Positions 1 through 46,041 of a DNA stretch of 51,415 bases are shown here, piece after piece. Source of the stretch: Campylobacterota bacterium (lineage in GTDB: Bacteria; Campylobacterota; Campylobacteria; Campylobacterales; Sulfurovaceae); contig VCAW01000040.1 of the NCBI GenBank assembly GCA_013607775.1, forward strand, positions 1 to 51,415, read 5' to 3'. The position numbers were made by a program, and so were the translations under genes. The notes under the pieces are model-generated. The model ran no database searches, was not told the origin of the DNA, and saw nothing but the letters and a program-made list of their open reading frames with translations. How positions within the stretch are numbered: the first letter of the stretch is position 1; every line of letters starts with the position of its first letter.

Positions 1-101
1 ACCCATTTCCACTAATTAAATAATCTGTATAAAGTTCTATGTAGTCTGTTTGTTTTCTCATATGTTATTATACTATGTTTTTGTAAAGTCCGTAAGGTCA
101 G
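1..101 (-). mobile_element. End of an insertion sequence carrying the 5' part of a probable IS701-family transposase gene
   Basis: Minus-strand ATG at 61 reads MRKQTDYIELYTDYLISGNG off the window edge, resembling the LYxDYLI N-terminus I associate with IS701-type transposases. TATAAT at 67-72 just upstream. The segment starts abruptly (CTGACCTTACGG) and supplies the TGA stop of the TMEM43 gene. Confidence 0.65.
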
Positions 102-922
102 TTAAAAATTGTTTGTGCAGAGACACGTCCCTGTCTTGCAAAAATAAACTCTTTTCCATTTTCTGTTGTGTATGGAGCTAATGACTGAGAAATCTGTTTT
201 GCTGCAAAGGTATAGACACCTGCAGGGGCATAGGTATAGGTAATTTTAATATCACCAATATTTGGCTGGTTAGGGTCGAGTCCAAGATACAAAAAGGTCT
301 TATAATTCTTTGCTACACCCAAATTATCTGGCATCCCTGCCAAGCCATTATAAGGCAGAGAAGTACCTATATGACTCACCACATATTTATCTAAATAAAA
401 GTCTCCCAATTGAGCGTCTGTAGTAAAAGTATCACCATGACGTGTCATAAGAGGATTTTGATGACCTTCAGGATGTTTAAAATCTGCAGAATTATTTGAA
501 AAGGAAGACCACTCTTTTACATAGGTATAGGTAGTTACAGTCTCTGTTCCACCACCCAGTTTATCTTGGCTTTTGCTTTCAGTCTTCTCTTTCCATTGAT
601 ACATAGATACATTTTTATGTAAAATAAGACCATCACTTTTCACGGCAAACTCGGGGTCAACAAGTTCTGAGAGAGGTTTTACTGAACCTTGTAAAAGTAC
701 CGCCTTGCCATCATTCTTAGCATCATAACGTGTATCAGGCAGCGTAACTATATTTTTTTGCATCTCCTCAAGGGCTGTAGCCTGTGCAACACTTCTACCC
801 TCATTCCACCACAGTAAGATAATAGACCCTATGAGTAAAATCAACCCAACAAAAATACCCTTAAAAGAGTTTCCTATATTTTGTCCATAACTTGTATAAC
901 TTGTTTCTGTAAATTTATCCAT
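98..922 (-). pseudogene. TMEM43/LUMA (DUF1625) family membrane protein, C-terminally truncated
   Basis: N-terminal TM helix then LLWWNEGR and VSMYQWKE motifs typical of TMEM43. Stops at 274 aa where the family's C-terminal TM helices should begin; stop codon lies within the putative IS end. Confidence 0.8.
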
Positions 923-934
923 CTGTCATTCTCC

Positions 935-1967
935 CTAAAAATTAAATCTATCGTCCATAGCCAAATCACCTATCATGCCCAACGCCGAGCCTTCACCTTT
1001 ATCTGAGCCACCATACTGTGGAGCCGCTGCCAACATACGTCCAGCAAGTCTTGAGAACGGTAAAGACTGTATCCATACTTTTCCTGGGCCTCTGAGTTTT
1101 GCAAAAAAGAATCCTTCCCCACCAAAAAGCCCTGTCTTTATGCCTCCAGCCTGTTCTATCTCAAATTCTATATGCGGCTGCATTGCAACAAGACACCCAG
1201 TGTCAAGATGCATTGTTTCTCCTTCTTGAAGTTCAATCTCTTTTAGCATCCCTCCTGCATGGATAAATGCCATCCCATCACCTTCAAGCTTCTGCATAAT
1301 AAACCCCTCACCACCAAAAAGTCCAGTCAAAATTTTCTTTTGAAAATAGATACCTATAGAGACTCCTTTTGCAGCACATAAAAAAACAGTCTTTTTGGCA
1401 AATAAGTGTACCACCCATCTCTTCAAGATTCACAGGAATAATACGTCCAGGATAAGGAGCACCAAAAGCAACCGTTGCCTTATCTGTACCTGTATGGGTA
1501 AAAACTGTTGTAAATAGACTCTCACCCGTGACTAAACGCTTTCCTGCTCCCACAAGCTTATCAAACAATCCACCTGTATCCTCTTTGGAACCAGAACCAT
1601 CACCAAAAACTGTATCCATCATAATATGACTGTTTTTATACATCATTGCCCCAGCCTCAGAGATAGCACTCTCACCAGGGTCTAACTCTATCTCAACATA
1701 TTGGATGTCATTACCAAAAATAGTATAGTCTATCTCATCGGCAGCATTTAAGCTACTGCCTTGTGCACGTAATGGAGGAGAAAAAGTTGTATTGGTTGTC
1801 GTAGATGTTAATTCTGGTACTTCCACAATGGGCTTCCAAGCAGAAAACCCCTCTGTCCAGGCATATCCGTTGGCATTCTCTTGCACATACTGTAAAGCTT
1901 CAGCAGTCGATATAGAACCATATTTCTCACCACTGTCATACTCTAAAAACCATTGTGTACTCATCAT
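935..1967 (-). pseudogene. TIGR00266/AIM24 family protein with N-terminal GYF_2 (DUF4339)-like domain, split by a frameshift
   Basis: ORFs 1308..2015 and 935..1426 join if the A7 run at 1380-1386 loses one base, restoring QKDCFLCAAKGV. AIM24 motifs AEAGAMMY-like, GLFGGEGF, LRGPGKVWIQSLP. N-terminus has WFL...YG and AWTEGFSAWKPI. AAGGA RBS precedes ATGs at 1967/1964. Confidence 0.8.
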
Positions 1968-2022
1968 CACATCCTTCATATAATATTTATATATTATAAT
2001 CAGCATCCGTGTCAAAAATGTG

Positions 2023-2926: not shown

Positions 2927-4477
2927 ATGAAACTTAACATTGTTTTAAGCATACTTATGGGACTTATACCCCTCTATATATCAGCTGATTAATTACCATC
3001 TATCATTGAGAATGTACTTGATACAAACCCTATCGTTAAAGAGCGCTTATACTACTATGAAGTGACAAAATCCGAAATAGGCATTGCAAAATCAGGCTAT
3101 TATCCCAGTGTTGATTTAGAATCCTCAATTGGTAGAAAAACAACCGGTAGAGTAGATAATAATATTAGTAGCGAAACATACAATGTCTTTCAAAACTCTT
3201 TAAAGTTAAAACAAAATATTTTCAATGGTTTTTATACCAACGAAACTGTCAAGTATCAAAAAATGCGTACCCTCTCTGCCTCCTATAGCTATTTAAGTAA
3301 AGTCAATGATATAGCACTCAAAGTGGTAAACGCCTATATACAGGTTCAACAAGAAAAAGCATTATTGGAAAATAGTAAACTAAATGTTAAACATAATGAT
3401 ACTACATATAAAAGAGTTCAAAAAGCCTATAAGGCAGGACTTTCTACCTTTTCGGAAGTAAGCAAGATTCATGCTTCTTTATCTTTAGCAAAATCCAATC
3501 TTATGCTACAACAAAACAAACTTCTTGTAGCAAAACATCGATTTAGAAAAGTGGTAGGCAAAGAGATAGGTCCCGAAGCATTAGAAAAGCTCCCCTCAAA
3601 CTTAATACTTCCCGAAACACAAAAAAAAGCAGAAGACTACGCATTGGAATACAGTCCGACAATTCTCGCAGGGAAATACAATATTCAAGGAGCGAAGGCA
3701 CTATATCAGCAATGTAAAAGTGCTTTCTATCCTAAAGTTGATCTTGAATTAAGTCAAAACTATAATGAAAACTATAATGAATTTATCGGGGTTGATGATC
3801 GTACACAAGGCTTAGTTGTTCTTAGTTACAATCTCTACAATGGTGGTGCAGATGAGATAAAAAGAGTGCAGTCTCTTTCAAAGATAGATCAAGAAGTTTC
3901 ATTAACCAATGACCTTAAGAGAGAGGTAGTACTCAACGTTCAGTTGGCTTGGAGTTCTTACGAACTTGCACTGAATCAACTTCCATTTCTTAAAGAATAT
4001 CAAAGAGAAAGTCAAAAAACATTGACACTGCATAACAATGAATATCAATTGGGAAAACGCTCTCTTCTAGATCTCATTACTGCTGAAAATGATTTAAAAC
4101 GTGCCAACGATGAGATTATTTATGCAAGCTATGGTCTGATACAAGCGAAATACAGCATTATGCATGCTATGGGGCTAATTGTTATTGCGATTATGAACAA
4201 TGAAACACTCTATTACAGACGTGTAGGTATTGATACCTATACAAAACCTTCTCCTGCTAAAATGGCACAAAAAAAAGACTATAAAACCTTATCACTTGCA
4301 ATGGAAGAAGAAGCAGATAATTCTAAAAACAACCTAGATACACAGGAGATAGAAGAAAGAAAGCTGACAACTACAGCTATATCAAAACATATAGATAAAA
4401 AGCAGCATACAGAAGAACCATCTTCCCTTAGTCAAATGATCAAATCTCTTTCAACCATACACTGGAAATCAAGATAG
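2927..4477 (+). pseudogene. TolC-family outer-membrane channel (type I secretion, LapE/AggA-like) with a nonsense mutation
   Basis: ATG 2927 gives signal peptide MKLNIVLSILMGLIPLYISAD, then in-frame TAA at 2990-2992, then the same frame continues into ORF 3062..4477. OEP motifs SGYYPSVDL, SAFYPKVDL, YNLYNGG, GKRSLLDL. Confidence 0.85.
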
Positions 4478-7400
4478 CGATTCCGGTGTATTTAAAATAT
4501 CTACCAACAATGAACTACTTTGTGTACCATGATGCATCGTCTGAGAAGCTTTTGCTTTGTGTACAAGTTGACGACTTTTTGTACTTGCAAGATACGTAGT
4601 CATCTCTCTAGCGGGCAATGGCTTTGAGATAAAATACCCCTGCACAGCATCACAACCCAAATCACTTAATGTAGAGAGTTGAGTTTCATGTTCCACACCC
4701 TCACATACCACAGAAATATCTATATTATGACACAGACCGATTAAACCACTTACGATAGATACAGAATGAATATTGCTAGGAAAGTCAGCCATCAAAGAAC
4801 GATCAATTTTTATCAGACCAATAGGAAAATTTTGTAAATAAGATAGAGAAGAATAGCCTGTACCAAAATCATCTAATGCAATCATAAATCCTGCATTATG
4901 TAATCCATATATTGCCTCAGTAATATAAGTATATTTTTTTAATAAGGCTGTTTCTGTTAATTCAAAAACTATATCATGAGGAAAAAGACCTTCTTCTCTC
5001 ACTATTTTAACAATTTCATCTACAAGATTTTTTTCATAAAACTGAATAGCAGATAGATTAATCGATATTTTTAAGTTCGGATGTCCATTTTTTTGCCAAA
5101 TCCGTAATTGATGACATGATTTTTCTATCACCCATCGACCTATCTCTTTAATACTCCCTGCATGTTCAGCTATATTGACAAAAAGATCTGGCGATACAAG
5201 TCCTAACTCTGGATGTTTCCACCGTAAGAGTGTTTCTACTTTTTCAATGCTCCCTGTTTCCAAGGTAATATTATAGGCTGAAAATTTAGGTACAGTTCAT
5301 CTCTTTCCAATGCCAAATGTAACTGACTTTCCAACTGTAATGCTCTTTTAGCATTAATATTCATCTCTTTATTGTAAAAAAGAAATTCTCCTCTTCCTTT
5401 TTCTCGAGCATCAACCAATGCCATTTTTGCATGATTTAGTAAAGCATCAACTTCTTGGGCATCACTAGGATAGATACTTATACCTACATTTGCTGTCATA
5501 ACAATCTCATGTCCATCAATTTCTACAGGTATATTTAAGACTTGCATCATACGATATACCGCCCAAGTGATATCTGCATCATTTTGAATACTTGGAAGAA
5601 TAGAGATAAATTCACTGTCAGAAACGCGTGATAAACTAACCGCATTATTGGTATCTACCGAAGGAAGGACAGAGTCAGATAAACGGAAGGTTTCCATTAG
5701 ACGATCAGAAGCAATTTTTTTAAGTTTTCGTGCAATGTTATGCCCAAAGCATTATTTGTCATTTGAATTGTATCTATAAATATATTGAGTACAGCCAAAT
5801 GCCTTTTTTCTCTTTGTGCCAGTCTTTGTGCTTGTGTTAAACGGTCTAAGATAAGTGCATATTCAGAGTCTTCACAAATACCCAAATGATGTGTAGAATC
5901 TTCTTCCTTATCTTTCGTAGTTACTTGTTTTACAATTGAAGATACTGTTGTCTATCTTCTTTCACTTGGCATCATCTGTTTTGCATGAGAATCTATTTCT
6001 TCACTATTTTCATTATAGGCAATGACTCTATTTCGTCCTGTTTGCTTAGCTGTATAAAGTGCTTTATCTGCAAGATCTATCAGTTTATCTGCTTCCCATA
6101 CTTGATGCTCCTCAGTACAGGCAACACCAAAACTGGAAGTAACATTTAAGCCTTCATTAATCTTCCCAAAATCATAATTTTCAACTGCTACACGTATTTG
6201 TTCTGCTCTTTCAAGCGCTTTATTTAAATGAGTATTAGGAAATACTATTACAAATTCCTCACCACCATAACGACTTACAAGGTGATCTTGAGACACTTCA
6301 GATTGCAAAATATCTGCAAATGTACGTATAACCTTATCTCCTACACTATGTCCATATGTATCATTCACTGATTTAAAAAAGTCTATATCCAAAATAACAC
6401 AAGAGAGCGCACGTTCTTGTTCTCTTGCTTCACGCAATAACTGATGTAAACTTTGAAACAATGCACGTCTGTTTAATAAATTGGTTAAAGGATCATGCGT
6501 CGATAATTGTAATAGTTTTCCATTCTGACGCTCAATCTCCTCTTGACTCGTTTTTAATCGCTCCAAAATATGATTTAATTCTTTGTTTTTTCTCTCCAGT
6601 GTTGTCACATCGTCTATTGTAACAATCACACCTTTTAATTTTTGATTCGCTACTTTAATAGGTGCCACACTTATATCTAAAGTCAATATCGTATCTTGCT
6701 CTGTCTTCATTCTAAATGTTTTTGTATCAGGTATCTCTTTGGTCTCAAGTAAATAGTTCCATGGTAAACTATGTTCTCCCAATATTTTTTCTTCATTTTC
6801 ATCTTCCCAGGAGAGATGCGATAATTGTTTTCCCATTAAACGATCTTCAGATAAATGGACTTTTTCTTTAAATGCATCATTTACAAATACAATACGACCT
6901 TGCGTATCTATAATAACTAAACCTTCATTCAGAACATCTAGAGCAGACCGGACACGTTCAGGCACAACTGAACTCGGATCAAGTTCACTCAATGCCCGCT
7001 TTAAAAATAACCAATAAGCAATAAATCCAAATACTGAGATAAACAATAACATAGCCGAAAAAGATCGCGCCGTAAACATGTTACTCCAGATAGTTCCTAA
7101 AGGTACAAAACTTACTTCCAGTGTACCCCAACGTGCTGCTTTCGCATAGATAGGTACTTGTATATAATTTACAGTAGAACTATCATCTTTTTGACCTTCC
7201 CAATACATATCATGCTGACTACTTTTCATAATCACTTTATCTAACACTGTAATAAGTGCGATGGAGTTTATTTGTGTATTACGTTTTACAATAGCATCCA
7301 GTAGATGTACTGCTTGACTTAAACGTTTTTCTCTTACTTCCGCTGAAATTTGAATTGCCAATGATTCTGCCATTACTTTACGGGACTGAATCTCAGATTC

Positions 7401-7526
7401 ATTTTGGTTTGGAACAATGCCAAAAAGATCTCCCATAAGCAAAAGACTGATAGTTAACAACCATAGTCCTATAGTTATACGAAGTACAGGAGAAACTTTA
7501 GGTAAAAATCTATTCCATTTCATCAT
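4469..7526 (-). pseudogene. Membrane-bound PAS-GGDEF-(degenerate GGDEF)-EAL c-di-GMP enzyme, ~1,018 aa when repaired
   Basis: Two TM helices, PAS (ALDVLNEGLVIID), DPLTNLLNRR/DIDFFK/RYGGEEF, degenerate SDSEF domain, EAL domain (VETLLRW, FELTET, LDDFGTGYSSL, EGVE, QGY). Broken by in-frame TAG 5952-5954 and frameshifts at T7 5715-5721 and ~5265-5272. Confidence 0.88.
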
Positions 7527-8380
7527 GACTTCTCTACTTCAAAAATTTGTTCTATAGACTCATCTTCATGTGAAATCACTTCATCTTCATCTTCATCTTC
7601 ATCTGTAAATATTGCAACAGGGTCAAATTCTTTCCACATAGGCATCGTAGCAAACAAACTCGCAATCAAAGAGCCTGACCGGAACAACCAGGCAACAAAT
7701 CCGGCTGTCAAAGAAAGTGTTATTCCAGAAGCAACTTCTACAGAAAAATCATTTTCATACTGTGCTTTTTCAGCATTTTCATCCATTTCTTTATACATTT
7801 TGTCCAAATCATTATAAAAATTTTCAGATTCATGATTATTAAGTACAGAAAGGAGAGAACTATCTATATTTACAGAATCTAAAGATTCCAATTCTGCCAT
7901 GTATCGCTCAGGTAACTCACTGTATGGCTGCTGAATAACAAAAACATCATTAAGATTGTCTAAATCAATTGTATCATACTCATTAGAAACCTGCTGATCA
8001 TCTACAGCTAATTCTATATGGTCTTGTACATCCTCTTCCAATAAATCTACTGTATCTGGTCTATCTATATTGCTTCCAATACTGCTGTCAAACACTATTA
8101 TATTTTCATCAAGTGGCAGCACCTCAGAGTCTTCTCCCGATGTACCTGCTGAACTTGAAAGTGATGTCCTTACAACATCAATTGTCAAGGTCTCACTATC
8201 TATCAAGTTACCCGTACCAGAATCAGTAACAGTGACCGTCACAGCCAATAAAGAACCCGTGTAATCTGACGATGGACTCCATGTAACAATCCCTGTACTT
8301 GGGTCAATATGCATACCAGCAGCCAACGATGCACTATCAAGACTATAGGTGAGTGTATTCTCCGCACCATCAACATCTGT

Positions 8381-8743
8381 TGCAGTGGCTGTAAATGTGA
8401 GGGTAGAGAGTTCATCTACATTTTGGTTCCCAATAGGGTCAAGGATTGGCGAGGTGTTGATATCATTGACGGTAATGGTAAAGGTTTCTGAGTCTACCAG
8501 ATTGCCTGTACCAGAGTCTGTCACGGTAATGGTCACGGTTGGTGTTGTACCGCCGTCAGACTCTGTTGGTGTCCAGCTAAACACACCCGTATTGGCATCG
8601 ATACTCATCCCTGCTGCTAGAGATGTGGCATCCAAGGTGAAGGTTAAGGTATCGGCTGGGATATCTGCGTCACTTGCAGTGGCTGTAAATGTGAGGATAG
8701 AGAGTTCATCTACATTTTGGTTCCCAATAGGGTCAAGGATTGG
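8381..8743 (-). repeat. Tandem 294-bp (98-aa) Ig-like repeat units with a near-identical ~69-bp core
   Basis: 8381-8449 and 8675-8743 are almost identical and encode PILDPIGNQNVDELS[T/I]LTFTATA. Confidence 0.85.
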
Positions 8744-11249
8744 AGCATCATTCACCGGTGCTACTGCTATATCAACCACCACTTCATTTGAAGTTGTCCC
8801 AACCGAATCATCTATGGTATAGGTAAAACTATCAGAGGTAGTTTCAGAACCATCATGGGAGTAACTTACCGTCCCGTCTGCATTGACAACCAAAGAACCA
8901 TTACTCGGTCCTGAGACAATAGTAATAGATGAAACATCCAAGTCACCATTAACATCTGTATCATTTGCTGCAAGATCAAGTATATTACTCGAAGAACCTT
9001 CATCAACCGTAAAACTATCTGCCACTGCGACAGGAGGATTGTTATATGCTACAGCTAAACTCAGTGCATTGATATCTTCATTGGCAGTATCGAGTCCTAC
9101 TTCATTACCTTGCATCAATAAAACTGCATTTGCAGTAGCATTACCACTACCCGCTACTAGGGTTGTAGTAGAAACATCCAAATAAAAAACATCATTTTCT
9201 GTGACAGAAAGCGCACTGTCTCCAATACCACTTTCACTGTTGTTTAATGTCAACAATATATTACCCGATGCGAGAGATGCTCTTCCAATGACAGTATTGG
9301 ACTCTATAAGTTCCAACCCTTGTATCTGCGTACCGTTACCAATATCTGAACCTTGTATAAACAGTGTCTCTGTCCCAATAGTAGTACCTGTACCCACATC
9401 ACTGGCTTCATAGAGATAGATATTTTCATGTGAACCAGCACGGGCAGCAAGCAATGAACCTGCTGTGACTACAGTATCTCCTATGGTCGTATCTTGTTCC
9501 ACCAAAGTGAACGCATGAATCTTATCAGTACCAAAAGGATCATCTAGCAGTGTAGTAAATGTACCGCTACTGTAATCTCCTGAAACATCTGCCCTAAAGA
9601 CAACGATATCCGTGTTTTGACTCGACAGTGTACTGCTATCGCTACTGGTGAAAGTCTCATTATCCTGTGTTGCAAAGAGTATGTCTCCTGCTTGAAGATT
9701 AAATGTATTTGCACCACTTCCCATGGTGATACTTTCTGTCACATAATGCATTCCTCTGACATCTGCACTACCGTCTTGAGTAAAATCATTGAGAGAAAAA
9801 GAAATATTAAAATCACCCTCTGTAGTACCAGGTGTCGTACCTGTCTCAAAATCCAACGAAGCACCGCCAAAGCTTAAGATATTTCCAGATGTCCAGCTAT
9901 CTAAACCGTTTGCACCACTTGGAGAGTTGACATCTCCATCTGTAGATAACAATAGATCAGTATCTGTAATGGGTTTTAGCACATTGATGGTCATAGTACT
10001 GTCTGCTGCCGAATCAACCATTCCATCGTTGACACTGAAAGTAAAGCTATCATAATTACCTCCGGCAGCATCTGGTATCGGCGTAAAGGTAAGCAGACCA
10101 CTGTCGATATCGGCAGCAGTGATCACTTGATCAAGGGTCACATCGGTACCAGAAAGCTGTAATGTACCCACTGTTTCCAATGTTGTGATCTTCACGCTAT
10201 TGAGAGGATCGCCATCTACATCACTGTAATTAAAATCAGATGTCACAAAAATGTAGGTACTATTTTTTCCTATACTCAGTGTATTGTCTGTACTTGTGGG
10301 AGCATCATTTATCGCTACCATAGTAACAATAGAAACCAAATTTGGCGAAGAGGTATCAACACCACCATTAAGTGTACCACCACTATCTGTTATACTACTA
10401 ATTGTAAATACACGGTCTGAAGTCGTTGGGTTTTCACTACTGTTTCTATAATTAATACTTCCACCAAGGTTTGCTATATTAGCTGGTGTTGCACCAAGTG
10501 TTGTGAGGGTTATAGTTGCCGTTGTTCCTACAAGACTCACGCTATAGTCATACCCATTGGTTGCAGATGTACCACTAACCAAGTCGGCTAAAGTAAACGT
10601 AGTACCATCAAGAGTGACTAGTTCATAGTTTCCATCTGTCACATTACTCACAGTAAACACTAATTCATCTATGCTTTGCCCAGCTTCTATAGTATCAGGT
10701 GTAACAAAACCAAAAAGTTGTACATCTGCATCCCCTTCAGTAAAAGTAGGATTATGTGATAAAGCTGTCAATGTCGGTGCATCGTTTACAGGTGTAATAA
10801 TCACCGTTGTACTACCAGTCACAGACAATGCCCCACCAGAGCCTTGTGCACCACTGTTCCCATCATCAAACGTCCAGTCTATTTGTGCTGAAGTATCTGG
10901 AGCATCACTGCTATTTGCGTAGGCTAAAGATTGTAATGTCTCATTGACCAAAGCTTGGGTGGCATTGGTATTAAAAGTTAAAACCAATGTTCCTGCACTA
11001 TTTGTAGTGATTACACCTATGTCTGTACCAGATACAGTGAGGTTTCCATTTTCAGTAAGAGTTGCGAGGTTTCCTGTTGATGAAAATGTGTCATCACTGT
11101 TTGCTGTACCAGTACGTTCTAAAGTGAGTGTTGCGCCATAAAAATTATCTGCCGCACTTAGTTCAGCATCAAAAATAGTAACGTCACTATCTAAAACAAC
11201 GGGGCTACCACCTTCTATAAAGGTTGGAGTAGCATTCAGAAAATCTGAT

Positions 11250-12450
11250 TCAAAAGTAGTGTCTAAAGTTCCATCTACATTGTAACGAACTAGTACAAAG
11301 TCAAAATCGCCCTCAGTTTCACTAAAACCAGAAATAAGGTACTTCCCATCAGCTTGAATCGTAATATCATGAGCTTGTTCTACTCCAGTACCTACAGCAA
11401 GAGTTATGATTCCATCATCACTAAAGCTAGTATCGAGGGTACCATCACTGTTGTAACGGACTATTGCGAAGTCACCATCTGTTCCATTATTGCTTTTACC
11501 TACAAGTATAATTTTCCATCATCTTGTAGTACTGCACTATAAGCAGTGTCATTATTACCTATATTTGTAGTAAGTTTTCCATCACCACTAAAAGTAGTAT
11601 CTAAACTTCCATCTGTGTTGTATCGAAGTAACGCAAAATCATTATCGACTCCATTAAAACTTGTTCCAGATACAAGTATCTTTCCATCAGGTTGTACAAG
11701 AACTGTCTGTCCAATGTCATCTCCAATGCCAAAGTCTGTAGTTACTATTCCACTACCATTAAAGTCAGTATCTAATGTTCCATCTGTGTTATATCTAAGA
11801 AGAGCTATGTCCCAGTCTGTACCATTAGAAGCATAACCTGTTACTAAAATCTTATCATCAACTTGTAAGCTAAGAGATAGGGCTACATCACTATTTGCAC
11901 TGATATCTGTATTTACTATCCCATCGCTATCAAAACTACTGTCTAAGCTGCCATCACTATTGTAACGGATGAGAGCAAAATCGGTATTAGTGCCGTTAAA
12001 ACTATATCCAGCGAGAAGAATTTTTCCATCACTCTGTAACGCAATAGAGTAACTCTCATCATTACCTGCTGTAATATCGGTAGTTACTATACCATCACTA
12101 TCAAAACTACTGTCGAGAGTACCATCGCTGTTGTAACGCATAAGAAGAAATTCATCACTTGTACCATTAGAACTAAATCCAGAAACAAAAAATTTACCAT
12201 CTGTTTGTAACGTAATATCATAAGCTATATCATTATTTACTGTAATATCGGTAGTTACTATACCATTGGTTCCAAAACTTGTATCTAAGCTTCCATCTGT
12301 ATTGTAACGGGTAATAGCAACCTCGTTACTCGTACCATTAAAACTGTATCCAGAAACGAGAACCTTACCATCGTCTTGCAAAACAAGTGCGTAAGCGCTA
12401 TCTTCACTTGAACCAATATCTGTCGTAACTATCCCATCTCCTACACCAAA
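11250..12450 (-). repeat. About seven delta-60-type repeats (probable beta-propeller) in the adhesin
   Basis: Recurring LQxDGKILxxG...RYN[T/S]DG[S/T]LD[T/S][S/T]F...G units of ~55 aa. Confidence 0.85.
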
Positions 12451-15400
12451 CGTCGGTGCATCATTCACAGCATCTACTGTAATAGTAACCGTATCTGTAT
12501 CAACCCCCAGTGATGCATCCATAATCTCAGCTATTTCTGCTGCAGTTAATGCACTATCATAGACACGTGCATCATCTATCATACCATCGAAGAAAAATTG
12601 TGTTTCATCAGAGTCAGCATGACGACCAATAGTTGAGTTAGTTAGTGTTCCTCCTGCTATAGCAGGAGCGGTATAACTAATAGAGTTCGTCACTGTAGCA
12701 TTGGCAACTACCACACCATCTAAGTATAAAGTTTGTTCATTATTCGTGTCATCAAATGTATAAGCAACATGATGCCAACCTGTTCCAGATATCGCCGTAT
12801 TGCTCTGCAATGTAATCCAGTCAGTATCGTCCCCGTTGATATTTCCTTGATAAAATATCCCCTGCAATCCATCACTTGTATCCCAGTCACCTGCTCTTAA
12901 TATAACTGAATCACCTAATGAGATGACCTCACCTACTTCAGCACCGGTAAAGTTAATCCATGCAGACAGTGTGACATCGGTGGGTTCACCATATAGACCG
13001 TTTATTTCTACTCCGTCACTCAAGGTAGTATCATCAAAACTAAGTACATCCCCTCTCGTTACGTCATTGACCTGCGTTGCTCCTACTACAGTACCATCAT
13101 AAGAGATACCCGCACCGCTATCTTCCCCGAGATTGGTCAAGTTGTCAAATGTATAAGCACCTATAAGATTGGTGTCATCATGGGTCTCGATATGAAGTGA
13201 TACCGAACCATTAAAGTCTGCATCGGGAGTAAAACTCAAACCATCTAGCGCCGTGCTGATATCGGCTAAGGTACCTGTGAAAGTCATAGTACTACTTACG
13301 TTACTGCCACTGACAAACGTAAGTCCTGTCGTTCCCGATAAATTTAAAATACCATCATTGACACTAAGACTTGTTTCCAGCAGACCTACACCTACATCCG
13401 CATCGGAGATAGAGATAAGGTTTCCATTGGCTGTATTAAATACCAATGCAGTATCTTCATCTGTATGCTCTACAGGTGTATATGCAAGCTGCACATCATC
13501 AAAATCAACATTGGCGACACTTGCAGGGTCACCAATATTATAAAACTCTATAGTTAAGGCATCTCCGTAATTCGCAGAGTATGTTGCCAATGTAGAAGCA
13601 TCAAGGTTTAGTGTTGCTTCCACAAAAGAGTCATTGGCAGGGTCAAAATCCGCATTGGAGACAGAACCCAAAAGCTGACTTCCTCCATACAAACGCATCT
13701 CCCAACCACTGGCATCTTCTGCTAGAGATTCATCTCCTACCATAGCTGTAAGCGTATAGCTTCTGTCTGCTTCAAAGGTTTCTGTAAGTACCTGTGAAAT
13801 AGTTGCTCCAGCAGTACTTGCATCAATATAAGCAACATTTTCTCCATCAATGACTGAGGGATCACTATATGCAGGAGAGTCAATATTCCATACACCCGTA
13901 GAAGCAGTCGTTGTCCATCCACTAATGGTATCCATAGTCACATCACCATCAGCCAAAACATCTGCTTCAAAACTTGGGTTGGTGATGGCGACTGATACTG
14001 TTTGTTGCAACTGTATCTCCGGTGGTGTATCGGCTGCCTGAAGCTCCCATGCAAGTTCAAGACCATCTCCCCCAAGACCTTCTGTACTCCCTACTGCCGC
14101 AGTCACATCAAAAGTCAAGGTTGTATAGGTACCGTTCACCTGCACAGAGCCTGCAGCAGCACCAAGTGATGGGTCTGCATCTGCCTCACTCGTATTAGAA
14201 ACAACATCTCCAACCGTACGATAAAAACTGTCTGGTGTCACATTTAAATGACCCACACCTGCCAGTTGCGTTAAAGTAGCACCTGCTGTTGTCACTGTCC
14301 ATTCAGAAGAATTAGATAACCCACCCCCCAGATCCACCAAGTCTATCAATATGAAGAATAGGATTTACCACTGCGGTATCAAAAGTGAAAGTAACCGTAA
14401 CCGTTTGTGCATCATCTGAAGCTTCAGGGGTATCATCCCAAAGTATTTCCATGTAAACAGAGTCTGCACCCTGCACATAAGCATCAGAGAAAAATACATT
14501 GGTCGTCAGGTTGTCGGCAGTGACATTTTGTACAATTGTGCCTGCTGGCGCAGAAAATGACATATCGACCGTCACAGGTAAAATAGTTGCCGTGGTTGTA
14601 CTGCTATAAGGTTCCGTTGTCGTCCATGCTCCAGTAAGATTTTCAACCGTTAGAAGTTCATTCCATGCATTCTGAACCGCATCGGAGACTACTACAGAAG
14701 TGTCAATCACACCTACTGAATACTCTAAATCCCAATCTCCGTCTAAAAGTGCATTTCCTGTTTTATCTGTTGAGCTGGCGACATCAGCACCTGTCAAGGT
14801 TGCCAAAGTATCCGTTAAGGTTACCCCCATCACTATCTAAAGAGACATCACATCCATACAGTAAGATATCTGCATCTTCTGAAAGTGCATCTGACCAAGA
14901 AGATATGGCCTCACTGTTCTCTAAAATATCATCATTTTCCAACCATGTATCACCCAATGAAAAAGCGCCATCACTCCCATGGGAGATAACATGAATAGCA
15001 TCCAAATCCGTATAATTAGACAATATCTCTGAAACCTGTTCCACTCCATTCTCTTCGGCATCAAGTACTACCACTTCAATGGTTCTTGTCTCATCACTCG
15101 GCTCTAGCCCATCAATAAGTTCTTGGTAGTCTGTAACATCAGAATTTACCAAGACAAGTTCTGTACGTGGTTCATCTGTTGTGTCACTCACCTCTAATAA
15201 AGAAGTGTCATCTACAATGTCTATAGATGTTTCATCTTGCACAAGTACAACTTCATCAACGGTTAGCTCTATATCAGTTGTCTCTACAGTAGGAGTATTT
15301 TCTACTGTATCATCTTGAATCAGTACTGTATTTTCTCCCGAAAGTTCTGTATCTATGGTCTCTTCAGTTTCAGGTGTTTCATCTAAAACTTCAACTTCAG

Positions 15401-15723
15401 GGGATTCACTATCGTTTGCAGTAGTATTAGTCTTACTTTCAGTTCCTTCTGACTCTGGACTATCCTCAGTAGAAGCTGCATCTTCTGTCATTGATGTGGT
15501 TTCTGTGTCATTAGAGACATCTATTGTACTGTTTGCTGTCTCTTCTTCATACGTTGTCTGTGCATTTTCTACAAGGGTATCACCCTCTGCAGTAATGTCC
15601 TGTACATTATCTGTCGGGATAATCACATCTGCACCAGGAAGATCTGCTGCCATCATAAAACGTGGTTCCAATACTTCAATTAAAACTGAAGGTCGCTTTA
15701 ATTTTTTTGCAGGCAGAATCTTT

Positions 15724-16599
15724 TTAGTCATGGCGTGACGTTACTCCCTGCTTAGAAGATAATGCATCTTTTTCAGTGAACTTCAAATCACAACGCAAGC
15801 CTGCAGCTATTTTATACTCAGGGTTGGGTAAAAGCAAACGTACACCAAAGGTACCACTTGCTGCATCTATCACTTCATCTACCTGTGAAACTTTCACTTC
15901 CCAACCTTTGCCAGCATTTTTATCTGTACATACTCTAGCATGCATCCCTACTTTAATAGTATTTTTTTGTGCCACGGGTACGATGAGTTCAACATATAAA
16001 GGATCAAGCTGTGCTAAACGTATCACAGGATCATCATCTATATACTCACCTATAGTTTTAAAACGTTCCATCACAACACCATAAAAAGGTGCATGTATCG
16101 TTCTGTGTGCAAGTCTGGCTTTGGCTTGTTTTAACTTATTCTGGGCAAGCATCTGTTTTTCTTTAGCCTGCAAGAGTTTAATTTCTGCAAGCTGAGTAGT
16201 TACCTTGGCTTTGTCATAATCGTGAAGAGAAAACGCTTTGTCATCATATGCATGTTTGGCTCGATCTTCTTCTCTTTTGGCATAAGTAAGATTTACTTTT
16301 TATAACGATATTTCCGAAATATCTGACGCTTGTTTACTTGCTAAGGCAACAGTTGCCTGTTCAACCTCATCATCCAAGACAGCAATAACAGCACCTTTTT
16401 CAACAAAGTCATTACGGTCAACCATAATACGATGGATAACCCCGCGGTCATTAGACCCAAGATCTGCCACATTACTTGGTATGACAACACAATCAAACGT
16501 ATCTGTTGTCATATTCATATCAGCCATACTTAAAGAAGGTACGATGACTAACAATATAGCTATTTTACGATACAAACGTATTAAAAAAATCTTATGCAT
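15724..16599 (-). pseudogene. HlyD/RND-type periplasmic adaptor (membrane fusion protein) with a nonsense mutation
   Basis: ORFs 16300..16599 and 15724..16173 share a frame, separated by TAA at 16300-16302. Lipoyl half-motifs GVIHRIMVDRNDFVEKG and TIHAPFYGVV; DAASGTFGVRL. Confidence 0.87.
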
Positions 16600-16669
16600 T
16601 CTTTCCCTTATCTTTTTATATTCTATCTCATAGTATCTTTATCAAAAATAAATCATATATGTCTTATTT

Positions 16670-18808
16670 TCATTTATGATAAAAATGTCTCAAAAAGAGT
16701 TGATTAAAGCGCAATGCCAACTGTTTTGCTACAGATAATTTTCCATGATTTAAACGTACATACACGCGTCCACCAATCTGACTTTTATGTATATTTTTTG
16801 GCATGACCAAATCTATCTCAAAGACAGGTGTTAACAATTTTGTTGCACTTTTATCCCTTCGGTCTACAGGGAATATGCCTCCGCCAGCTGTACCCAGTAC
16901 GGCACTTGCCAAATGTCCTGTTGCTTGAGGGGTTTGACGGATAATCTCACTTCTATAGGTCTGCGATATGTCATTGGCAAACTTACAGTCAACCTCCGTC
17001 TCATAACTTTCTAACAACCCTATACGTGCTTGGGGTACCACTGCTTTGATCATGAGTTTCTTATCATTAATAATGTACCCTAAAGTATCCCCTTGATGCA
17101 CATATTGCCCTCTCATATCTTCTGTACTAGAGGCTATAAATTTTCCCTTACTCATACTTTTTATCTCTAAATCATTTATCTTCTGTTTCAACGCCTTATA
17201 TTGATCATTTGCTGCATCTATATCATCTTTAAGCATTGCGGCTTTCGTCCGATTCTTTCGCTCTTCAGAAAGATATTCTGCTTGCAACTCATTCAGATGA
17301 TATTTGAGTGCTTTATACTCCGACAACAAGGTATCATCATGTAGCTGAATTAAACTCTGATTTACATCAACTTGTGTATTGGAAGGAACAAATACTTTTT
17401 CGACAAAACCCGATGTGCCTGCAGTTACCTGTGCATCACCATCTGTCCAAACTACCCCTTCTGTATAGGTAATCAGCGACACCGGTATGGAAAGCAATAT
17501 AACGATAATAACACTCCCAAACAACACAACCCCAATAGCCCTTGCGCGATGCAAACTAAGTGATTCATTAAAGAGAAGGAATTTTATACCTTTAATCAAA
17601 GGTATAATCAACTGCATAGTCAACGTCCATGTCGCGAGTGCTACACCTATCACTAAAAAGTTATCTACCAAATAAAGTGCGATGCTAAACATAATCATAA
17701 AACGGTATACCGGTGCAGCAAAACCATAAAAAAGAAACCATTTCTATTCCCCCACTGCAGTAACCGGGCTTTGTACATTTGAGATCTTTAAAATATACTT
17801 CTGTATCAAGTAATAATAATAACGCTTGGCACGTGTAGCAAGATTGGGGATTTCCAACCAATCTTCAAAAACAAAATAACCATCATAACGCATGAGTGGA
17901 TTTCCATTAAACAACAGCGTAGAAAAAGTAGCAATAATAATAACATTAAGTGCCATATCCTTTACGATACCAGGTTCTACAGCCAACCATAAAAAAAGTG
18001 CCAACGAGGCAAGAAAAAGTTCTACAAAAATACCTGCTGCACCTACAGCCATGCGTCTCCACTTATTGCCAAAGGTATATGAATCTGTAGCATCTACATA
18101 AGGTACAGGCATAAATATCAGTAGATTAATGCCCATTTCACTAACTTCTCCACCCCAAGTTTTTAATGCAAGCCCATGACCAAGTTCATGCATTGCCTTA
18201 ATAAAAGGGTAGATTAACCACATTGCCAATAACTGTCCAGAAGAAATATCCAGTGACAACATTGCATTTTTCAATTCACCTGCATGTGTCAACCCTAGTA
18301 ACAGTGCAAGCATAAGAGTCAACGCCCAAATCCAAAGTCCCCACGTAGAAAAAAGTATTTTTCCTAAAGGGGCCAATGCATTTAACAACTTATCGGGATT
18401 TAATAAAGGAAGTTTAATTGAAAGTGGGTTCATATAGGAACGTTGACGTTTTTTCTTTTTTGAAGCTTTGTATTGATGAAACACATCTTGTGCATTCACC
18501 GGTAAACCACCTTTAAGGACTTCTGCAGCATCAAGTTGCCCCAATAGACCTATAACATCTTCTTGTGTAAAAGGATAGTCATTTTGTGTTTCATTCGCAT
18601 GATCAAGTATCTCTTCTAAAGTCAGGTCACCATCAAAACGTCCCAAGATTGCATACGCATGTTCATTAAATCGTAAATATTGTTTTGAGGAATGATCATG
18701 TAAGACATACCAACGCTCGCCACGATACACATGAGGGATAACCTCAACATGTCCACGTAATTGCGGTTTTAAATGTGCAACATACTGCCATAATGGATGT
18801 GTAGTCAT
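16670..18808 (-). pseudogene. M50 (site-2) metalloprotease fused to an N-terminal PqqD/RRE-like domain and a C-terminal HlyD-like adaptor, with a nonsense mutation
   Basis: HELGH zinc motif and NGNPLMRYDGY motif among TM helices. ORFs 17744..18808 and 16670..17698 share a frame, separated by TAG at 17744-17746. C-terminal half has lipoyl/coiled-coil adaptor pattern (SGFVEKV, GQYVHQGDTLG). Confidence 0.85.
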
Positions 18809-18818
18809 TTAAATACTC

Positions 18819-20638
18819 CTACAGTCCCAAAGACCAAAACCATAAACGGATACGATCCAATAGTGTATGAGACAGTACCCACAGCACATTTTCCTCACCT
18901 ACATTTACTTTAGCAATACCTTGCATACCTGGTTTAAGTTTTGTCTCATTGCCATCAGTAAGTTTGGCTTCAACTCGAAAATAGTTACCGCCATTGGCAA
19001 CAGTAGAAATAGGAATAATACGTGAAATAGATATATCCAATGCATCATATGGTAAACCTACCAAACGTAAAGAGCCTTCCTCTTTTACTGTCAATTTTGA
19101 GATATCTTCATCTTCCACATTCAAAATAACCCTATAATTACCAAGAGGAGAAACTTTAAAAAGTGCCTCTCCCTTCTCAACAGGTGCCCCCAAAGGCTGA
19201 CTCAAATCACCCGATACAACAATACCACTAAAAGGTGCTTTTATAGTACTTCTCTCCACCTTTTCCTCTACAAGGTCTATGCGTGCATTCACTTGAGAAA
19301 TTTGTGCAGAGAGTATACTTACTTTTGCACGTTCTCGCAGTGCCAATGCTTCTCTGTACTCCTTTTTGATCTTCCCACGTTCACTTACAAGCTTACGGTA
19401 TTCCAGTTTGAGATCATGGTCTGCCAACTGTACCATCACTTCTCCTGCATCAACCTTTCCACCTGCACGTACATTTGCCTTTTCAATAAATCCATCATAA
19501 GGTGCCACAATCACTTGCTGTATTGCACCTTCTAATGTAGATTTTGCATAGATATAATAAGGTATTTTCACAATAAGCAGTGTGATGAGCAGTGTCAATA
19601 TACTAGCTAAAAGAAGTTTGAACCTAAAATGCCCTTTCCCAAATAGCCATCGTAACTTCTGTTTTATATTTTGAAATACTTTTGTAAACAAAGTATCTTC
19701 CTCTTTTAGCTTAAAGGCTAAAACTGAACTTAACAACTCACTGCTTCGTTGGAGTACTTTATATTCATCATTTCTAAATGGTTTGTTTTTAGACCGCATC
19801 AATAAAAGTGTGGCAAAAACTGTTTCCTCTTTTTCTAAAGGAATCGTCATTATTGAAGCATCCTCATTAAGTCTAGACAATGTCTGATGTTTTTGTATCA
19901 CACAAGACGCTATATCATCTACTTTAGGATATATAATACTTTGTTTCTGATCAGAAGCTTCTTCCATAGCAAGCTCCATATCTCGTACCATAGAGGTACG
20001 CGAATCAAAACGAAGTTGATGAGAAAGTCCCAAAATATGTACATTTAAACCATCAACTTCACCCAGACCAACCCGTGTACAATGAAAATACTCCGCAAAA
20101 AAATTGGAAATGTGATACGCTGTCAACGCCATAGGTTCATCTTTCAAGCCTATTTCTATCATACTATGAATAAATTGATTTACATCTCCCATCTCTTCAG
20201 AGCTTGCTTCCAATGTAGACTCAAGCCAGGTAACACCCCACTGAAACAATTGTAAAACTGCTTTTTTCTGTTCTTCTGAACGTACTGCCTGTAAAAAACA
20301 ACCGCACCTATAACTTCGTTATTTTTATGTAAAGGTAGTGTAATAGTATCACATACCATAGCACTGCTATCTAATGTACACGTTAATTTTGATACCATAC
20401 TCTTACGACCAGACACGACATCTCGTGCCAGTTCATAAAGTTTAGTATCCATACCCTCCCAACTACTCTCAGAAGACCACTTTGTGACCATTTCTAAAAT
20501 ATCATCATTTTGTTCATTTTGTAAAAAAACTGCACTAATTCTCACATCAGAAATCATTTTACATTGCCATATAAGCCAACGAGATGCAACAGAAGAGAAA
20601 GAGTGTAATGAAATATCTTCAGAAGTAATTTATGACAT
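18819..20638 (-). pseudogene. HlyD-family adaptor with N-terminal cytoplasmic GAF-like domains, disrupted
   Basis: GAF-like segments (TITLPL...IGAVV; MEEASDQ...IMTIPL), TM helix, then VAPYDGFI and IKAPFSGIVVSGDL, KPGMQG. Frameshift at A6 20293-20298. Probable ATG at 20638 after AAGGA is followed by in-frame TAA at 20630-20632. Confidence 0.8.
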
Positions 20639-28342: not shown

Positions 28343-29164
28343 TTATTTTGAAATTGTTTTTACTGAATCATTTGTATTTGTAGCTACAGAGTTTACTGAA
28401 TCAGATGTACTTATTGAAACTGATTTAACAGATGTCGAAGCATTGTCATTTACTGATTTTACAGATTTGCTTGTGTCATTTGAAACTGTTTTAACAGAGT
28501 CATTTGCATTTGTTGCTACTGATTTTACAGAGTCAGCTGAGTTATTTGAAACAGACTTTACAGAATCTTTTGAATCGTTAGATACAGTTTTTACAGAATC
28601 AGCAGAATCATTTGATACAGTACTTACAGTACTATTTAAATCATTTGATACATGTTTTACAGAATCTCTTGAGTCATTAGAAACAGTTTTTACTGTGTCA
28701 GATGTGTCTTTAGAGACAGCCACTGCAGAATCTTTCATCTCTTTAGAAGCGATTGTTGCAGAATCTTTAAGATCTTTTGTTGTGTTAGTCATCGCATCTT
28801 TTGTATCTGTAGATACAGAAACTACAGTGTCTCTAGAGTCAGTTGATGTTGCTACTTCAGATGTTTTAAGATCATCAGACACTTTTACAGAAACATCTTT
28901 ACCATCTTTACTTACTGTAGTCACAGTTCTTTCAGCTGATTTAGTTGTTTCAACTGCACCATCTTTAAGCCCAGTAAGTGTATCTTTAGCATCTTTACTC
29001 ATGCTAATGATTGTATCTTTAAAATTTTTAACCATTGAGTTAAAATCACCATCATTTTTTACGCTCTCAGTTACTGCTTTAGTCTCTACTTTTGGCGCTT
29101 CTTCGGCGTGAATGCTTGTCAATAATGCAGCTACTGCTACAGAAGTTGTAATAATTTTGTTCAT
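28343..29164 (-). CDS. Secreted low-complexity protein built from 11-residue repeats (273 aa)
   Basis: RBS and ATG at 29164, signal peptide MNKIITTSVAVAALLTSIHA, repeats such as SADSVKTVSND, SKDSVKSVSNN, SRDSVKHVSND. Confidence 0.8.
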   Translation of the reverse strand: MNKIITTSVAVAALLTSIHAEEAPKVETKAVTESVKNDGDFNSMVKNFKDTIISMSKDAKDTLTGLKDGAVETTKSAERTVTTVSKDGKDVSVKVSDDLKTSEVATSTDSRDTVVSVSTDTKDAMTNTTKDLKDSATIASKEMKDSAVAVSKDTSDTVKTVSNDSRDSVKHVSNDLNSTVSTVSNDSADSVKTVSNDSKDSVKSVSNNSADSVKSVATNANDSVKTVSNDTSKSVKSVNDNASTSVKSVSISTSDSVNSVATNTNDSVKTISK

Positions 29165-29257
29165 GTTTGTATCCCTTTTGTTTTTTGAATATGTAATAAT
29201 AACCAAAAAGGGTTAATTAATAACTTAAACTTATTATATTAAATACTTTTACTTATG

Positions 29258-32088: not shown

Positions 32089-32112
32089 TTCCTCTTATTT
32101 AATTGCAAAGGT

Positions 32113-32196
32113 AACCTATGTGCAAAATATACAGGATGCACCCTATCCTCGAAGAGGACGCTTGCGTTTGCATCCTGTATATTTTGTGCATAGGTT
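32113..32196. repeat. Long intergenic palindrome (REP/MITE-like) between napL and napD
   Basis: 28-bp arms aacctatgtgcaaaatatacaggatgca / tgcatcctgtatattttgtgcataggtt (2 mismatches) around an inner hairpin tcctcgaagagga. Confidence 0.8.
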
Positions 32197-32203
32197 GACT
32201 CCA

Positions 32204-36668: not shown

Positions 36669-36673
36669 ATCTG

Positions 36674-43887: not shown

Positions 43888-43893
43888 AGATGC

Positions 43894-46026: not shown

Positions 46027-46041
46027 TAGTCTGTCAGACTC

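What the first reader, a model, noticed from the sequence alone, without database searches (positions are those of the whole stretch)
2927..20638. Candidate undescribed export system: type I-like apparatus without an ABC ATPase, built on a site-2 protease, for a LEPR-XLL giant protein
Seen: one minus-strand operon GAF-HlyD > RRE-like/M50/HlyD > HlyD > giant protein > c-di-GMP enzyme, with short gaps or overlaps (8-nt overlap at 15724-15731, ATGA at 7523-7526), plus a convergent TolC. It has three different membrane-fusion proteins but no HlyB-type ABC or RND pump. The substrate has no Sec signal peptide and no RTX GGxGxD repeats. Established: T1SS needs an ABC transporter, one MFP and TolC and reads a C-terminal signal. 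Inference: the polytopic M50-MFP fusion takes the inner-membrane role, mixed MFPs bridge to TolC, and the LEPR-XLL protein is the cargo of a distinct pathway.
Basis: partly seen in the sequence, partly recalled or inferred. Interest (0 to 1): 0.92.

Follow-up and report, generated by a model that had tools for sequence, protein, structure and literature searches.

The report
Pump-less exporter for double-tagged giant adhesins
A gene island, broken in this genome but intact in relatives, encodes a membrane protease, three adaptor proteins and an outer-membrane channel but no ABC pump and no spare SecA motor, beside a giant surface-type protein with conserved tags at both ends; it is a motor-less variant of a module described from genomes in 2015, and it likely exports and tethers such giants by a route that is still untested.

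Summary
The anatomy is real, but all six genes are broken (11 breaks; reads show real decay). The island lies between tsf and an ABC ATPase that follows tsf directly in 5 of 5 congeners, so that ATPase is not its pump. The system is not undescribed: Kamneva et al. 2015 reported GAF-HlyD, M50-HlyD, HlyD and a second SecA without an ABC, and proposed M50 as the pore. This scan has also found the module at least 12 times on other DNA. New here: (1) a SecA-paralogue-free clade; 20 of 24 genomes with such loci hold only housekeeping SecA, and this genome has no type I ABC. (2) The M50's N-terminal domain has the fold of leader-binding RREs; the cargo's LEPR tag co-occurs with the M50 (28/56 versus 3/344 genomes) and resembles the daptide leader; predicted binding is weak (0.57, control 0.01). 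(3) An unnamed C-terminal hydrophobic tag (23/56 versus 0/344) lies at least 181 residues after the last Ig domain and is usually followed by a cognate c-di-GMP enzyme gene. Likely mechanism: N-terminus-first export with leader clipping and tail anchoring, inner-membrane step probably by housekeeping Sec. Untested.

The parts
18819..20638 (-). GAF-HlyD adaptor, one predicted membrane helix; stop at 20630-2 and frameshift near 20292
   Evidence: Pfam GAF_3, HlyD_3, HlyD_D23; intact 655-aa ORF in congener G003; breaks
16670..18808 (-). RRE + site-2 (M50) protease + HlyD fusion, about 712 aa; stop at 17744-6
   Evidence: Pfam PqqD, Peptidase_M50, HlyD; NF041824 159 bits; full-length allele P0028, 712 aa, 22 differences; model
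18506..18772 (-). RRE (leader-binding) domain, approximate limits
   Evidence: three strands then three helices; TbiB1 5v1u Z 10.0, rmsd 2.7, 83 aligned; 6jx3 Z 9.8 (model of the G003 homologue)
17882..18190 (-). zinc-site motifs HELGH (18190-18176) and NPLMRYD (17902-17882)
   Evidence: invariant columns in 104 sequences; HExxH and NxxPxxxxD in 107 of 107
15724..16599 (-). third adaptor (MFP) with N-terminal hydrophobic segment; stop at 16300-2
   Evidence: TIGR01730, HlyD_D23; sense codon in runs X2, X3
7523..15731 (-). giant adhesin-like cargo, about 2,735 aa: LEPR leader, DUF4347, HpiC1-like, laminin G, delta-60 propeller repeats, cadherin/Ig domains, linker, C-terminal tag; three frameshifts (near 14824, 14324, 11512)
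15642..15680 (-). LEPR-XLL leader motif (residues 18-30), behind a basic N-terminus
   Evidence: NF012209 17.4 bits, PF07595; alignment A3
7826..8170 (-). low-complexity acidic linker between the last Ig domain and the C-terminal tag, approximate
   Evidence: 179 residues from last strand to the tag's Trp; at least 181 in 31 of 31 homologues with a Pfam match
7574..7825 (-). unnamed C-terminal tag: polar helix, hydrophobic stretch with RxG, then PxW..DP and a short charged tail
   Evidence: alignments A5, A6; no Pfam or NCBIfam family shared by 2 of 38 members; one long helix in the model
4469..7526 (-). cognate membrane c-di-GMP enzyme TM-PAS-GGDEF-GGDEF(degenerate)-EAL, about 1,018 aa; stop 5952-4, frameshifts near 5742 and 5268
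   Evidence: same architecture intact in L034, L037
2927..4477 (+). TolC-family outer-membrane channel, convergent; stop at 2990-2
   Evidence: TIGR01844 223.5 bits on the shortened ORF, cut-off 225.15; orthologue beside the EAL end in G445, G003, G448, not found in G021, G033

Best explanation
This is a decayed island encoding a SecA-paralogue-free form of the M50/adaptor module, which in intact relatives likely exports the giant adhesin N-terminus first and likely leaves it anchored by its tail. Shown: gene content, decay, absence of an ABC pump and of a second SecA, the RRE fold and intact zinc site, and the co-occurrence of both cargo tags with the machine. Inferred steps: (1) the RRE binds the LEPR leader; (2) the site-2 protease clips it, by analogy with daptide leaders just after LEPR; (3) the unfolded chain crosses the inner membrane through housekeeping SecA-SecYEG, the role a dedicated SecA paralogue would share in the other form; (4) the three adaptors hand it to TolC, and folding of the Ig and propeller domains outside pulls it through; (5) the C-terminal hydrophobic helix stops in the inner membrane, the 130-150-residue linker spans the conduit, and the neighbouring c-di-GMP enzyme reads or controls the tethered state. 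The core claim (ABC-free, leader-guided handling of LEPR giants by this module) I put at about 0.7; the figure below is for the whole route including Sec.
For: Tag co-occurrence in an even draw of 400 Gammaproteobacteria: LEPR 28 of 56 M50-positive versus 3 of 344 negative at E <= 0.002, 34 versus 14 at the curated cut-off; C-terminal tag 23 of 56 versus 0 of 344. Five Granulosicoccaceae-type genomes have the machine without a giant beside it and 2-8 tagged giants elsewhere. RRE neighbours are lasso-leader binders; the protease part matches RseP, Z 9.5, rmsd 4.1, 164 aligned. The N-terminal half scores best on the daptide RRE-protease model, whose substrates carry ELExMEAP (bioRxiv 2023.03.08.531785, passages) against IEVLEPR here. 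Predicted M50(1-345)-leader complex: weak support, 0.57 against best control 0.01; that mark was reached by 116 of 157 solved and 2 of 215 mismatched pairs, but at 0.60 or under by only 18 of the 157 and by both mismatches; runs agree in at least 90% of contacts, partner pLDDT 53-57; similar RRE-leader complexes are solved, so likeness may explain it. For Sec: the only motor ever linked to the module is a SecA; LEPRxLL giants of Chlorobium chlorochromatii, a genome on Kamneva's list, are reported in the periplasm before transfer (bioRxiv 2026.03.19.712371 section 8); a C-terminal anchor is what the SecY lateral gate produces (established knowledge, recalled). Linker of at least 181 residues in 31 of 31; cognate GGDEF gene directly after the tag in 21 of 29 and 7 of 7 loci.
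Against: No experiment on any member was found in nine literature searches. The leader has no hydrophobic core, so it is no normal Sec signal. The tail is only marginally hydrophobic (KD maximum 1.26-2.17; 1.5 in the window) and was modelled alone. TolC lies in the fetched flanks of only 5 of 80 loci, three of them my queries. 22 of 56 M50-positive genomes have no LEPR hit over the cut-off and 33 of 56 no C-terminal tag; three strong LEPR genomes have no M50 fusion. The tag also occurs in 11 genomes that have the SecA paralogue, so it does not define the SecA-free form. 17 of 60 searched genomes carry an LssB-type ABC elsewhere. Kin are not independent, so the counts overstate significance. 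A periplasmic intermediate is hard to square with a closed adaptor-TolC tunnel.
Confidence: 0.45

Rival explanations
1. One-step, motor-free route: oligomeric M50-HlyD and GAF-HlyD form the inner-membrane channel themselves; the chain is fed co-translationally after leader capture and pulled by folding outside or by the proton gradient; the SecA paralogue is an optional booster.
For: M50-HlyD is polytopic and fused to a complete adaptor; 35 of 56 M50-positive genomes show no paralogue; the M50 protease EpeP is thought to do both cleavage and export (PMC10885120, passage); an N-terminal tag allows co-translational feeding.
Against: No pore was modelled or tested; site-2 proteases are not known as protein channels (recalled); a reported periplasmic pool of LEPRxLL giants fits two steps better.
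Confidence: 0.25
2. The module is a processing and surface-sensing device rather than the exporter: the giant reaches the envelope by another route, and M50 cuts the tail helix (not the leader) to release it or to signal to the c-di-GMP enzyme.
For: Marginal membrane helices with helix breakers are typical site-2 protease substrates (recalled); the tail tag is confined to M50-positive genomes and tied to the GGDEF gene; GAF domains suggest sensing.
Against: Three adaptors and a cognate TolC point to transport; many giants beside the module end without this tag, whereas the LEPR leader recurs in all layouts examined, including the distant TolC-MFP-giant-GAF-M50 form.
Confidence: 0.15
3. The machine borrows a canonical type I ABC transporter (or an MsbA-like or MacB-like pump) encoded elsewhere.
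For: 17 of 60 genomes have an LssB-type ABC over the cut-off and only 15 candidates per genome were scored, so this is a floor; 3 of 80 loci have an ABC exporter in the flanks; a LolD/MacB-like ATPase abuts the island.
Against: This genome has none: best scores 278.6 (LssB, cut-off 693), 207.6 (PrtD, 510), both hits MsbA-like; no HlyD over the cut-off. The abutting ATPase follows tsf in 5 of 5 congeners, four of which show no M50 fusion. The cargo has no RTX repeats. The genome is 97.6% complete and decaying, so loss is not excluded.
Confidence: 0.1
4. A chance cluster or an assembly artefact.
For: The genome is in 268 contigs and every gene of the locus is broken; one break is not in run X1.
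Against: Three runs of three studies cover the island in the same order; the order is conserved across phyla; intact alleles exist.
Confidence: 0.03

Closest known systems
Secondary SecA_DEAD / Peptidase_M50-HlyD / GAF-HlyD / HlyD (+/- OEP, SapC) locus of Kamneva, Poudel and Ward 2015 (PMC4452313)
   Same: Same three adaptor-bearing proteins in the same order, no ABC transporter, occasional TolC; the paper already proposes M50 as the pore.
   Different: No second SecA in the locus or the genome; the paper names no cargo, no RRE and no c-di-GMP partner (0 hits for adhesin, cadherin, PqqD in the main text) and has no experiment on function. Its M50 tree (S8 Fig) could not be read and may show homologues without a neighbouring SecA.
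Type I secretion systems for giant RTX adhesins (HlyB-HlyD-TolC; LapBCE with LapA, LapD, LapG)
   Same: TolC of the type I subfamily, adaptors, a giant Ig-rich adhesin, a c-di-GMP gene beside it, and probably retention at the surface.
   Different: No ABC, no RTX repeats, signal at the N-terminus, candidate anchor at the C-terminus; no LapG-family protease found in the genome. Lap mechanism partly recalled, partly from a passage.
RRE-fused site-2 proteases of peptide natural products (daptide MpaP; epipeptide EpeP)
   Same: RRE + HExxH protease architecture, best NCBIfam match (E 1.8e-46), similar leader motif.
   Different: Score 159 is below the cut-off of 300; fused to an adaptor; the putative substrate is a 2,700-residue protein, not a short precursor with a C-terminal Thr.
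Peptidase-containing ABC transporters (PCAT) with HlyD and TolC
   Same: Logic of reading and clipping an N-terminal leader during export (recalled).
   Different: No C39 peptidase-ABC fusion and no double-glycine leader; the protease is a membrane metalloprotease.

Membership tests
Kamneva 2015 secondary-SecA module | Peptidase_M50 protein fused to HlyD | tested here: met
Kamneva 2015 secondary-SecA module | GAF-HlyD protein and a further HlyD/biotin-lipoyl protein | tested here: met
Kamneva 2015 secondary-SecA module | No ABC transporter in the locus | tested here: met
Kamneva 2015 secondary-SecA module | Second, wingless SecA_DEAD protein in the locus or genome | tested here: not met
   one SecA only, 883-aa frame; genome 97.6% complete
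Canonical type I secretion system | HlyB/LssB/PrtD-type ABC transporter | tested here: not met
Canonical type I secretion system | HlyD-type adaptor over the TIGR01843 cut-off | tested here: not met
   best 37.7 bits against 208.65
Canonical type I secretion system | TolC-family channel | tested here: met
   OEP E 9.5e-52; TIGR01844 223.5 on a shortened ORF
Canonical type I secretion system | RTX GGxGxD repeats in the cargo | tested here: not met
   0 matches
Canonical type I secretion system | Uncleaved C-terminal secretion signal | not testable with these tools
   a conserved C-terminal tag exists but its role needs experiments
Lap-type retention and release | LapG-family (C93) protease | tested here: not met
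   0 matches in this genome; control rang in Caulobacter
Lap-type retention and release | N-terminal periplasmic retention module on the adhesin | not tested
   DUF4347 and the acidic N-terminal stretch were not folded
Daptide/epipeptide RRE-site-2 proteases | RRE fold fused to an HExxH...NxxPxxxxD protease | tested here: met
Daptide/epipeptide RRE-site-2 proteases | Score over the NF041824 cut-off and a short precursor peptide with modifying enzymes nearby | tested here: not met
   159 against 300 on the N-terminal half; no such enzymes among the locus genes
Daptide/epipeptide RRE-site-2 proteases | Binding and cleavage of the leader | tested here: inconclusive
   weak predicted support, 0.57 against 0.01; cleavage not testable
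PCAT | C39 peptidase-ABC fusion and double-glycine leader | tested here: not met
   no such domain in the locus; leader alignment has no GG

The most novel reading that the evidence does not exclude
A TolC secretion route with no dedicated ATPase that threads giant adhesins N-terminus first after an RRE-protease clips their LEPR leader, and leaves them tail-anchored in the inner membrane as a tether across both membranes that pulls on a cognate c-di-GMP enzyme: exporter, anchor and surface sensor in one, the mirror image of the Lap system.
Probability: 0.25. Interest if true: 0.9.

Novelty: new variant of a known kind. Interest (0 to 1): 0.66.

Why it matters
The module is common (at least 5,309 M50-HlyD proteins; 56 of 400 sampled Gammaproteobacteria) and no test of it was found in print. 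Its likely cargoes include the largest bacterial proteins: frames of 14,112 and 13,848 residues here, and the LEPRxLL giants of Chlorobium chlorochromatii, which leave the cell but have no known export signal. Showing that most sampled carriers have neither an ABC pump nor the spare SecA turns 'what powers it' into a sharp question. The two cargo tags, a predicted cut site and a cognate signalling gene give direct mutational tests. If the tether reading holds, it is a new way to export, anchor and sense surfaces. This copy itself is a pseudogene cluster and is useful only as a pointer.

Tried and rejected
Adjacent ABC ATPase as the pump: rejected. Breaks as sequencing error: rejected for 10 of 11. 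Expression: no RNA holder listed, no evidence either way. Promoter scan: 76 sites against 67.3 +/- 7.2 in shuffles, uninformative. Foldseek, the second-look alignment and the PDB sequence search on the full M50 model returned almost only adaptor matches; the wide search reached the RRE and protease parts. I expected the C-terminal tag to be a membrane hairpin; the model gives one long helix (residues 50-117, pTM 0.34), so the hairpin idea was dropped; that model was not searched against structures, and the tag has not been compared with the ESM Atlas. Leader and tail tags are unrelated. A first SecA cut-off of 1e-195 missed divergent paralogues; corrected, but the 0 of 24 among M50-negative genomes rests on the strict cut-off. 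Whether the Campylobacterota M50s form one clade: the test did not finish, so no donor or direction of transfer is claimed. Cargo size against SecA presence: frames over 10,000 residues occurred only in paralogue-positive genomes (G529, G588, G729), but paralogue-free ones reach 8,576 and 8,811 and many are cut by contig ends; not used. The first ORF clustering was confused by antisense frames in GC-rich loci and was redone with profiles. Literature searches that found no functional study. Earlier scan notes on the tail tag: none by sequence or by words.

Full report
Observation. The window is contig C27 of a 2.26-Mb, 37% GC genome in 268 contigs, 97.6% complete; its closest named M50 relatives are from Sulfurovum, so I infer a Sulfurovum-like organism. 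The c-di-GMP gene is one frame of about 1,018 codons (TM-PAS-GGDEF-degenerate GGDEF-EAL) from 7526 to 4469.

State of the locus. All six genes are broken, 11 breaks in all. Contigs of run X1 (mollusc metagenome by its record, possibly the source) match the window at 10; the stop at 20630-2 is not in X1. Run X2 (vent metagenome, over 99% alike) has open frames at 10 of the 11 sites but its own frameshifts in TolC (11 bases out at 3892) and M50 (1 base out at 18556) and a joint that skips 8459-12749. Run X3 (about 94% alike) is open at 8 sites shown; three sites are not settled because the tables were cut or the run does not cover them. So two sister strains appear to have lost the island separately. 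The 31 ORFs scanned in the rest of the window look largely whole, though RND genes elsewhere are split and simple coding density is 0.89 against 0.91-0.97 in six stretches of relatives.

Island, not operon with a pump. A LolD/MacB-like ATPase gene ends 110 nt from TolC. In 5 of 5 congeners it follows tsf directly, so 2.9-20.6 kb is an insertion between housekeeping genes. The M50 fusion was found in 1 of 36 congeners and 0 of 24 other genomes of the order, and in 3 of 400 drawn from the phylum. The genome has one SecA, no LssB, PrtD or HlyD over their cut-offs, its two ABC exporters being MsbA-like, and no LapG-family protease. The TolC has an orthologue next to the EAL end in G445, G003 and G448 and none in two closed congeners without the island.

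Prior art. Kamneva, Poudel and Ward 2015 (PMC4452313; I read parts 1-5 of 7 of the text and the text of S13 Fig, S1 and S2 Tables) describe GAF-HlyD, M50-HlyD, HlyD and a wingless second SecA, note that there is no ABC, and propose M50 as the pore. They name no cargo. Their M50 tree (S8 Fig) is a picture I could not read and may include SecA-less homologues. A 2026 preprint (10.64898/2026.03.19.712371; passages and section 8; supplements not seen) shows that two LEPRxLL giants of Chlorobium chlorochromatii, a genome on Kamneva's list, reach the partner cell, lack known signals and are reported in the periplasm beforehand; it has no hit for M50. Other papers seen as passages only: PMC10885120, PMC8277102 (first 300,000 of 747,818 characters held), PMC10868602, PMC13723633, PMC5313232, bioRxiv 2023.03.08.531785. 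Nine searches found no functional study; the library lacks most subscription papers. Earlier notes of this scan report the module at least 12 times, one without a pump; I had found the 2015 paper and stated the leader idea before reading them.

Two forms. Of the best 80 of 594 confirmed loci (the query came from this clade, so the set leans towards it), 52 have the SecA paralogue after M50, 20 have the third adaptor there (one labelled by hand), 6 end too soon and 2 were dropped for a short M50. Of 24 genomes with SecA-free loci, this one included, 20 hold only housekeeping SecA and 4 have a paralogue elsewhere; two positive controls rang (most are incomplete assemblies). In an even draw of 400 Gammaproteobacteria, 56 have the M50 fusion, the centre genome G451 included; 21 of the 56 have the paralogue and 35 show none, of which G644 gave no SecA at all and G724 has an unresolved fragment. 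On a quick tree of 108 M50 rows the window lies in a starred set of 29 rows (25 SecA-free, 4 unknown), among mostly gammaproteobacterial rows; the label changes 5 times, which cannot tell gain from loss. A distant form in the window's own order reads TolC-MFP-giant-GAF/HlyD-M50/HlyD, also with a LEPR-type leader and one SecA. ABC exporters lie in the flanks of 3 of 80 loci, RND pumps 0, TolC 5 (48 loci reach 15 kb). Against this reading: 17 of 60 genomes have an LssB-type ABC somewhere, a floor.

The protease. The intact congener protein models at pLDDT 88. Residues 18-104 match the lasso-leader RREs TbiB1 (Z 10.0, rmsd 2.7, 83 aligned) and 6jx3 (Z 9.8); 194-389 match RseP (Z 9.5, rmsd 4.1, 164 aligned, a middling score for helices); 445-700 match MacA/MexA/EmrA (Z 14-15). 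HExxH and NxxPxxxxD are present in 107 of 107 rows, so the site is kept as an active protease.

Tag 1, the leader. LEPR-XLL hits: 28 of 56 M50-positive against 3 of 344 negative genomes at E <= 0.002 (a threshold I chose after seeing the list), 34 against 14 at the curated cut-off; the three strong exceptions have no M50 fusion. The consensus is basic N-terminus, then (I/F)ExLEPRxLxSA; those rows were picked by a pattern, so their invariance is partly built in. The best NCBIfam match of the M50's N-terminal half is the daptide RRE-protease, whose precursors carry ELExMEAP ending at position -1 (binding was shown there for the other RRE, MpaB; removal by MpaP is stated in the discussion). Aligned, that puts the cut after LEPR (inference). 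The predicted complex gave weak support only: 0.57 against 0.01, with the counts and caveats given under evidence.

Tag 2, the tail. The giant ends in a motif that no Pfam or NCBIfam family covers. A five-sequence profile (G451's included) hit 23 of 56 M50-positive and 0 of 344 negative genomes; 12 without and 11 with the paralogue. A gene of the same TM-PAS-GGDEF family follows it directly in 21 of 29 loci of that draw and 7 of 7 in near relatives, but 0 of 10 in Granulosicoccaceae-type genomes, where that gene follows the third adaptor and 2-8 tagged giants lie elsewhere, many with both tags in one frame. In 31 of 34 tails with a Pfam match the nearest matched domain ends at least 181 residues before the tag's Trp, 17 of them at 181-236; only best stretches are listed, so the longer values may hide domains. 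The stretch is low-complexity, long enough to span an adaptor-TolC conduit of roughly 30 nm (recalled). Many giants upstream of SecA-positive loci end without this tag.

Mechanism and verdict. The most economical reading is leader-guided, N-terminus-first export with tail anchoring; housekeeping Sec is my pick for the inner-membrane step (0.45 overall), ahead of an M50-built channel (0.25), a processing/sensing role (0.15) and a borrowed ABC (0.10). It works like a hybrid of a peptidase-containing exporter and a retained-adhesin system; it is not a type I system, and it fails the defining SecA feature of the 2015 module, so I file it as a new variant. Interest 0.66: the core is in print and this copy is dead, but the motor-free clade, two cargo tags and the cognate c-di-GMP gene make an open question testable.

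Noticed in passing
window 935-2015 (-) and 98-922 (-): A GYF_2/AIM24 (TIGR00266) gene split over two frames, followed by a TMEM43-family gene, just beyond the ABC ATPase.
   Followed up: no
window 28343-31088 (-): Low-GC stretch (31-34%) with a C5 methylase and an Eco47II-like endonuclease plus an unassigned 287-aa ORF: a likely type II restriction-modification insertion.
   Followed up: no
window 31720-39511 (-): Periplasmic nitrate reductase cluster; the NapB-like protein (34046-35011, 321 aa) has an extra N-terminal cytochrome c domain.
   Followed up: no
window 40735-51364: Crp-type regulators, NirDL-like, tetrapyrrole methylase, radical SAM, cytochromes c and a di-haem peroxidase: probably haem d1/denitrification genes.
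   Followed up: no
window 13486-13995 (-), within the giant: A strong HpiC1-cyclase-like Pfam match (E 7.6e-29) inside the adhesin, more likely a ligand-binding beta-sandwich than an enzyme (inference).
   Followed up: no
window 4717, 10656-10663, 19771: Run X1 shows the same 25-base loose end at three places in the island, as if one mobile element sits there in part of the population.
   Followed up: no
G000 contigs C6, C9, C142: Several RND transporter genes are split or carry stops, suggesting wider decay of envelope genes in this genome.
   Followed up: partly
L015:12378-14219, L019, L022, L064, L065: The third adaptor carries a C-terminal SPOR (peptidoglycan-binding) domain in several gammaproteobacterial loci.
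   Followed up: no
L101-L106 (G425, G181, G418): Distant form of the module in the window's own order: TolC, MFP, LEPR-type giant, short GAF-HlyD, M50-HlyD, with housekeeping SecA only.
   Followed up: partly
L014 and L015 (one genome): Two copies of the SecA-free module, one intact and one broken in several genes.
   Followed up: no
L051:9087-9953, L074, L077, L089, L090: SapC-family genes inserted in SecA-positive loci, as in the 2015 paper; none was seen in the SecA-free loci except a truncated one.
   Followed up: partly
G729:C84, G529:C1, G588:C1: LEPR-tagged open frames of 14,112, 13,848 and 12,249 residues.
   Followed up: no
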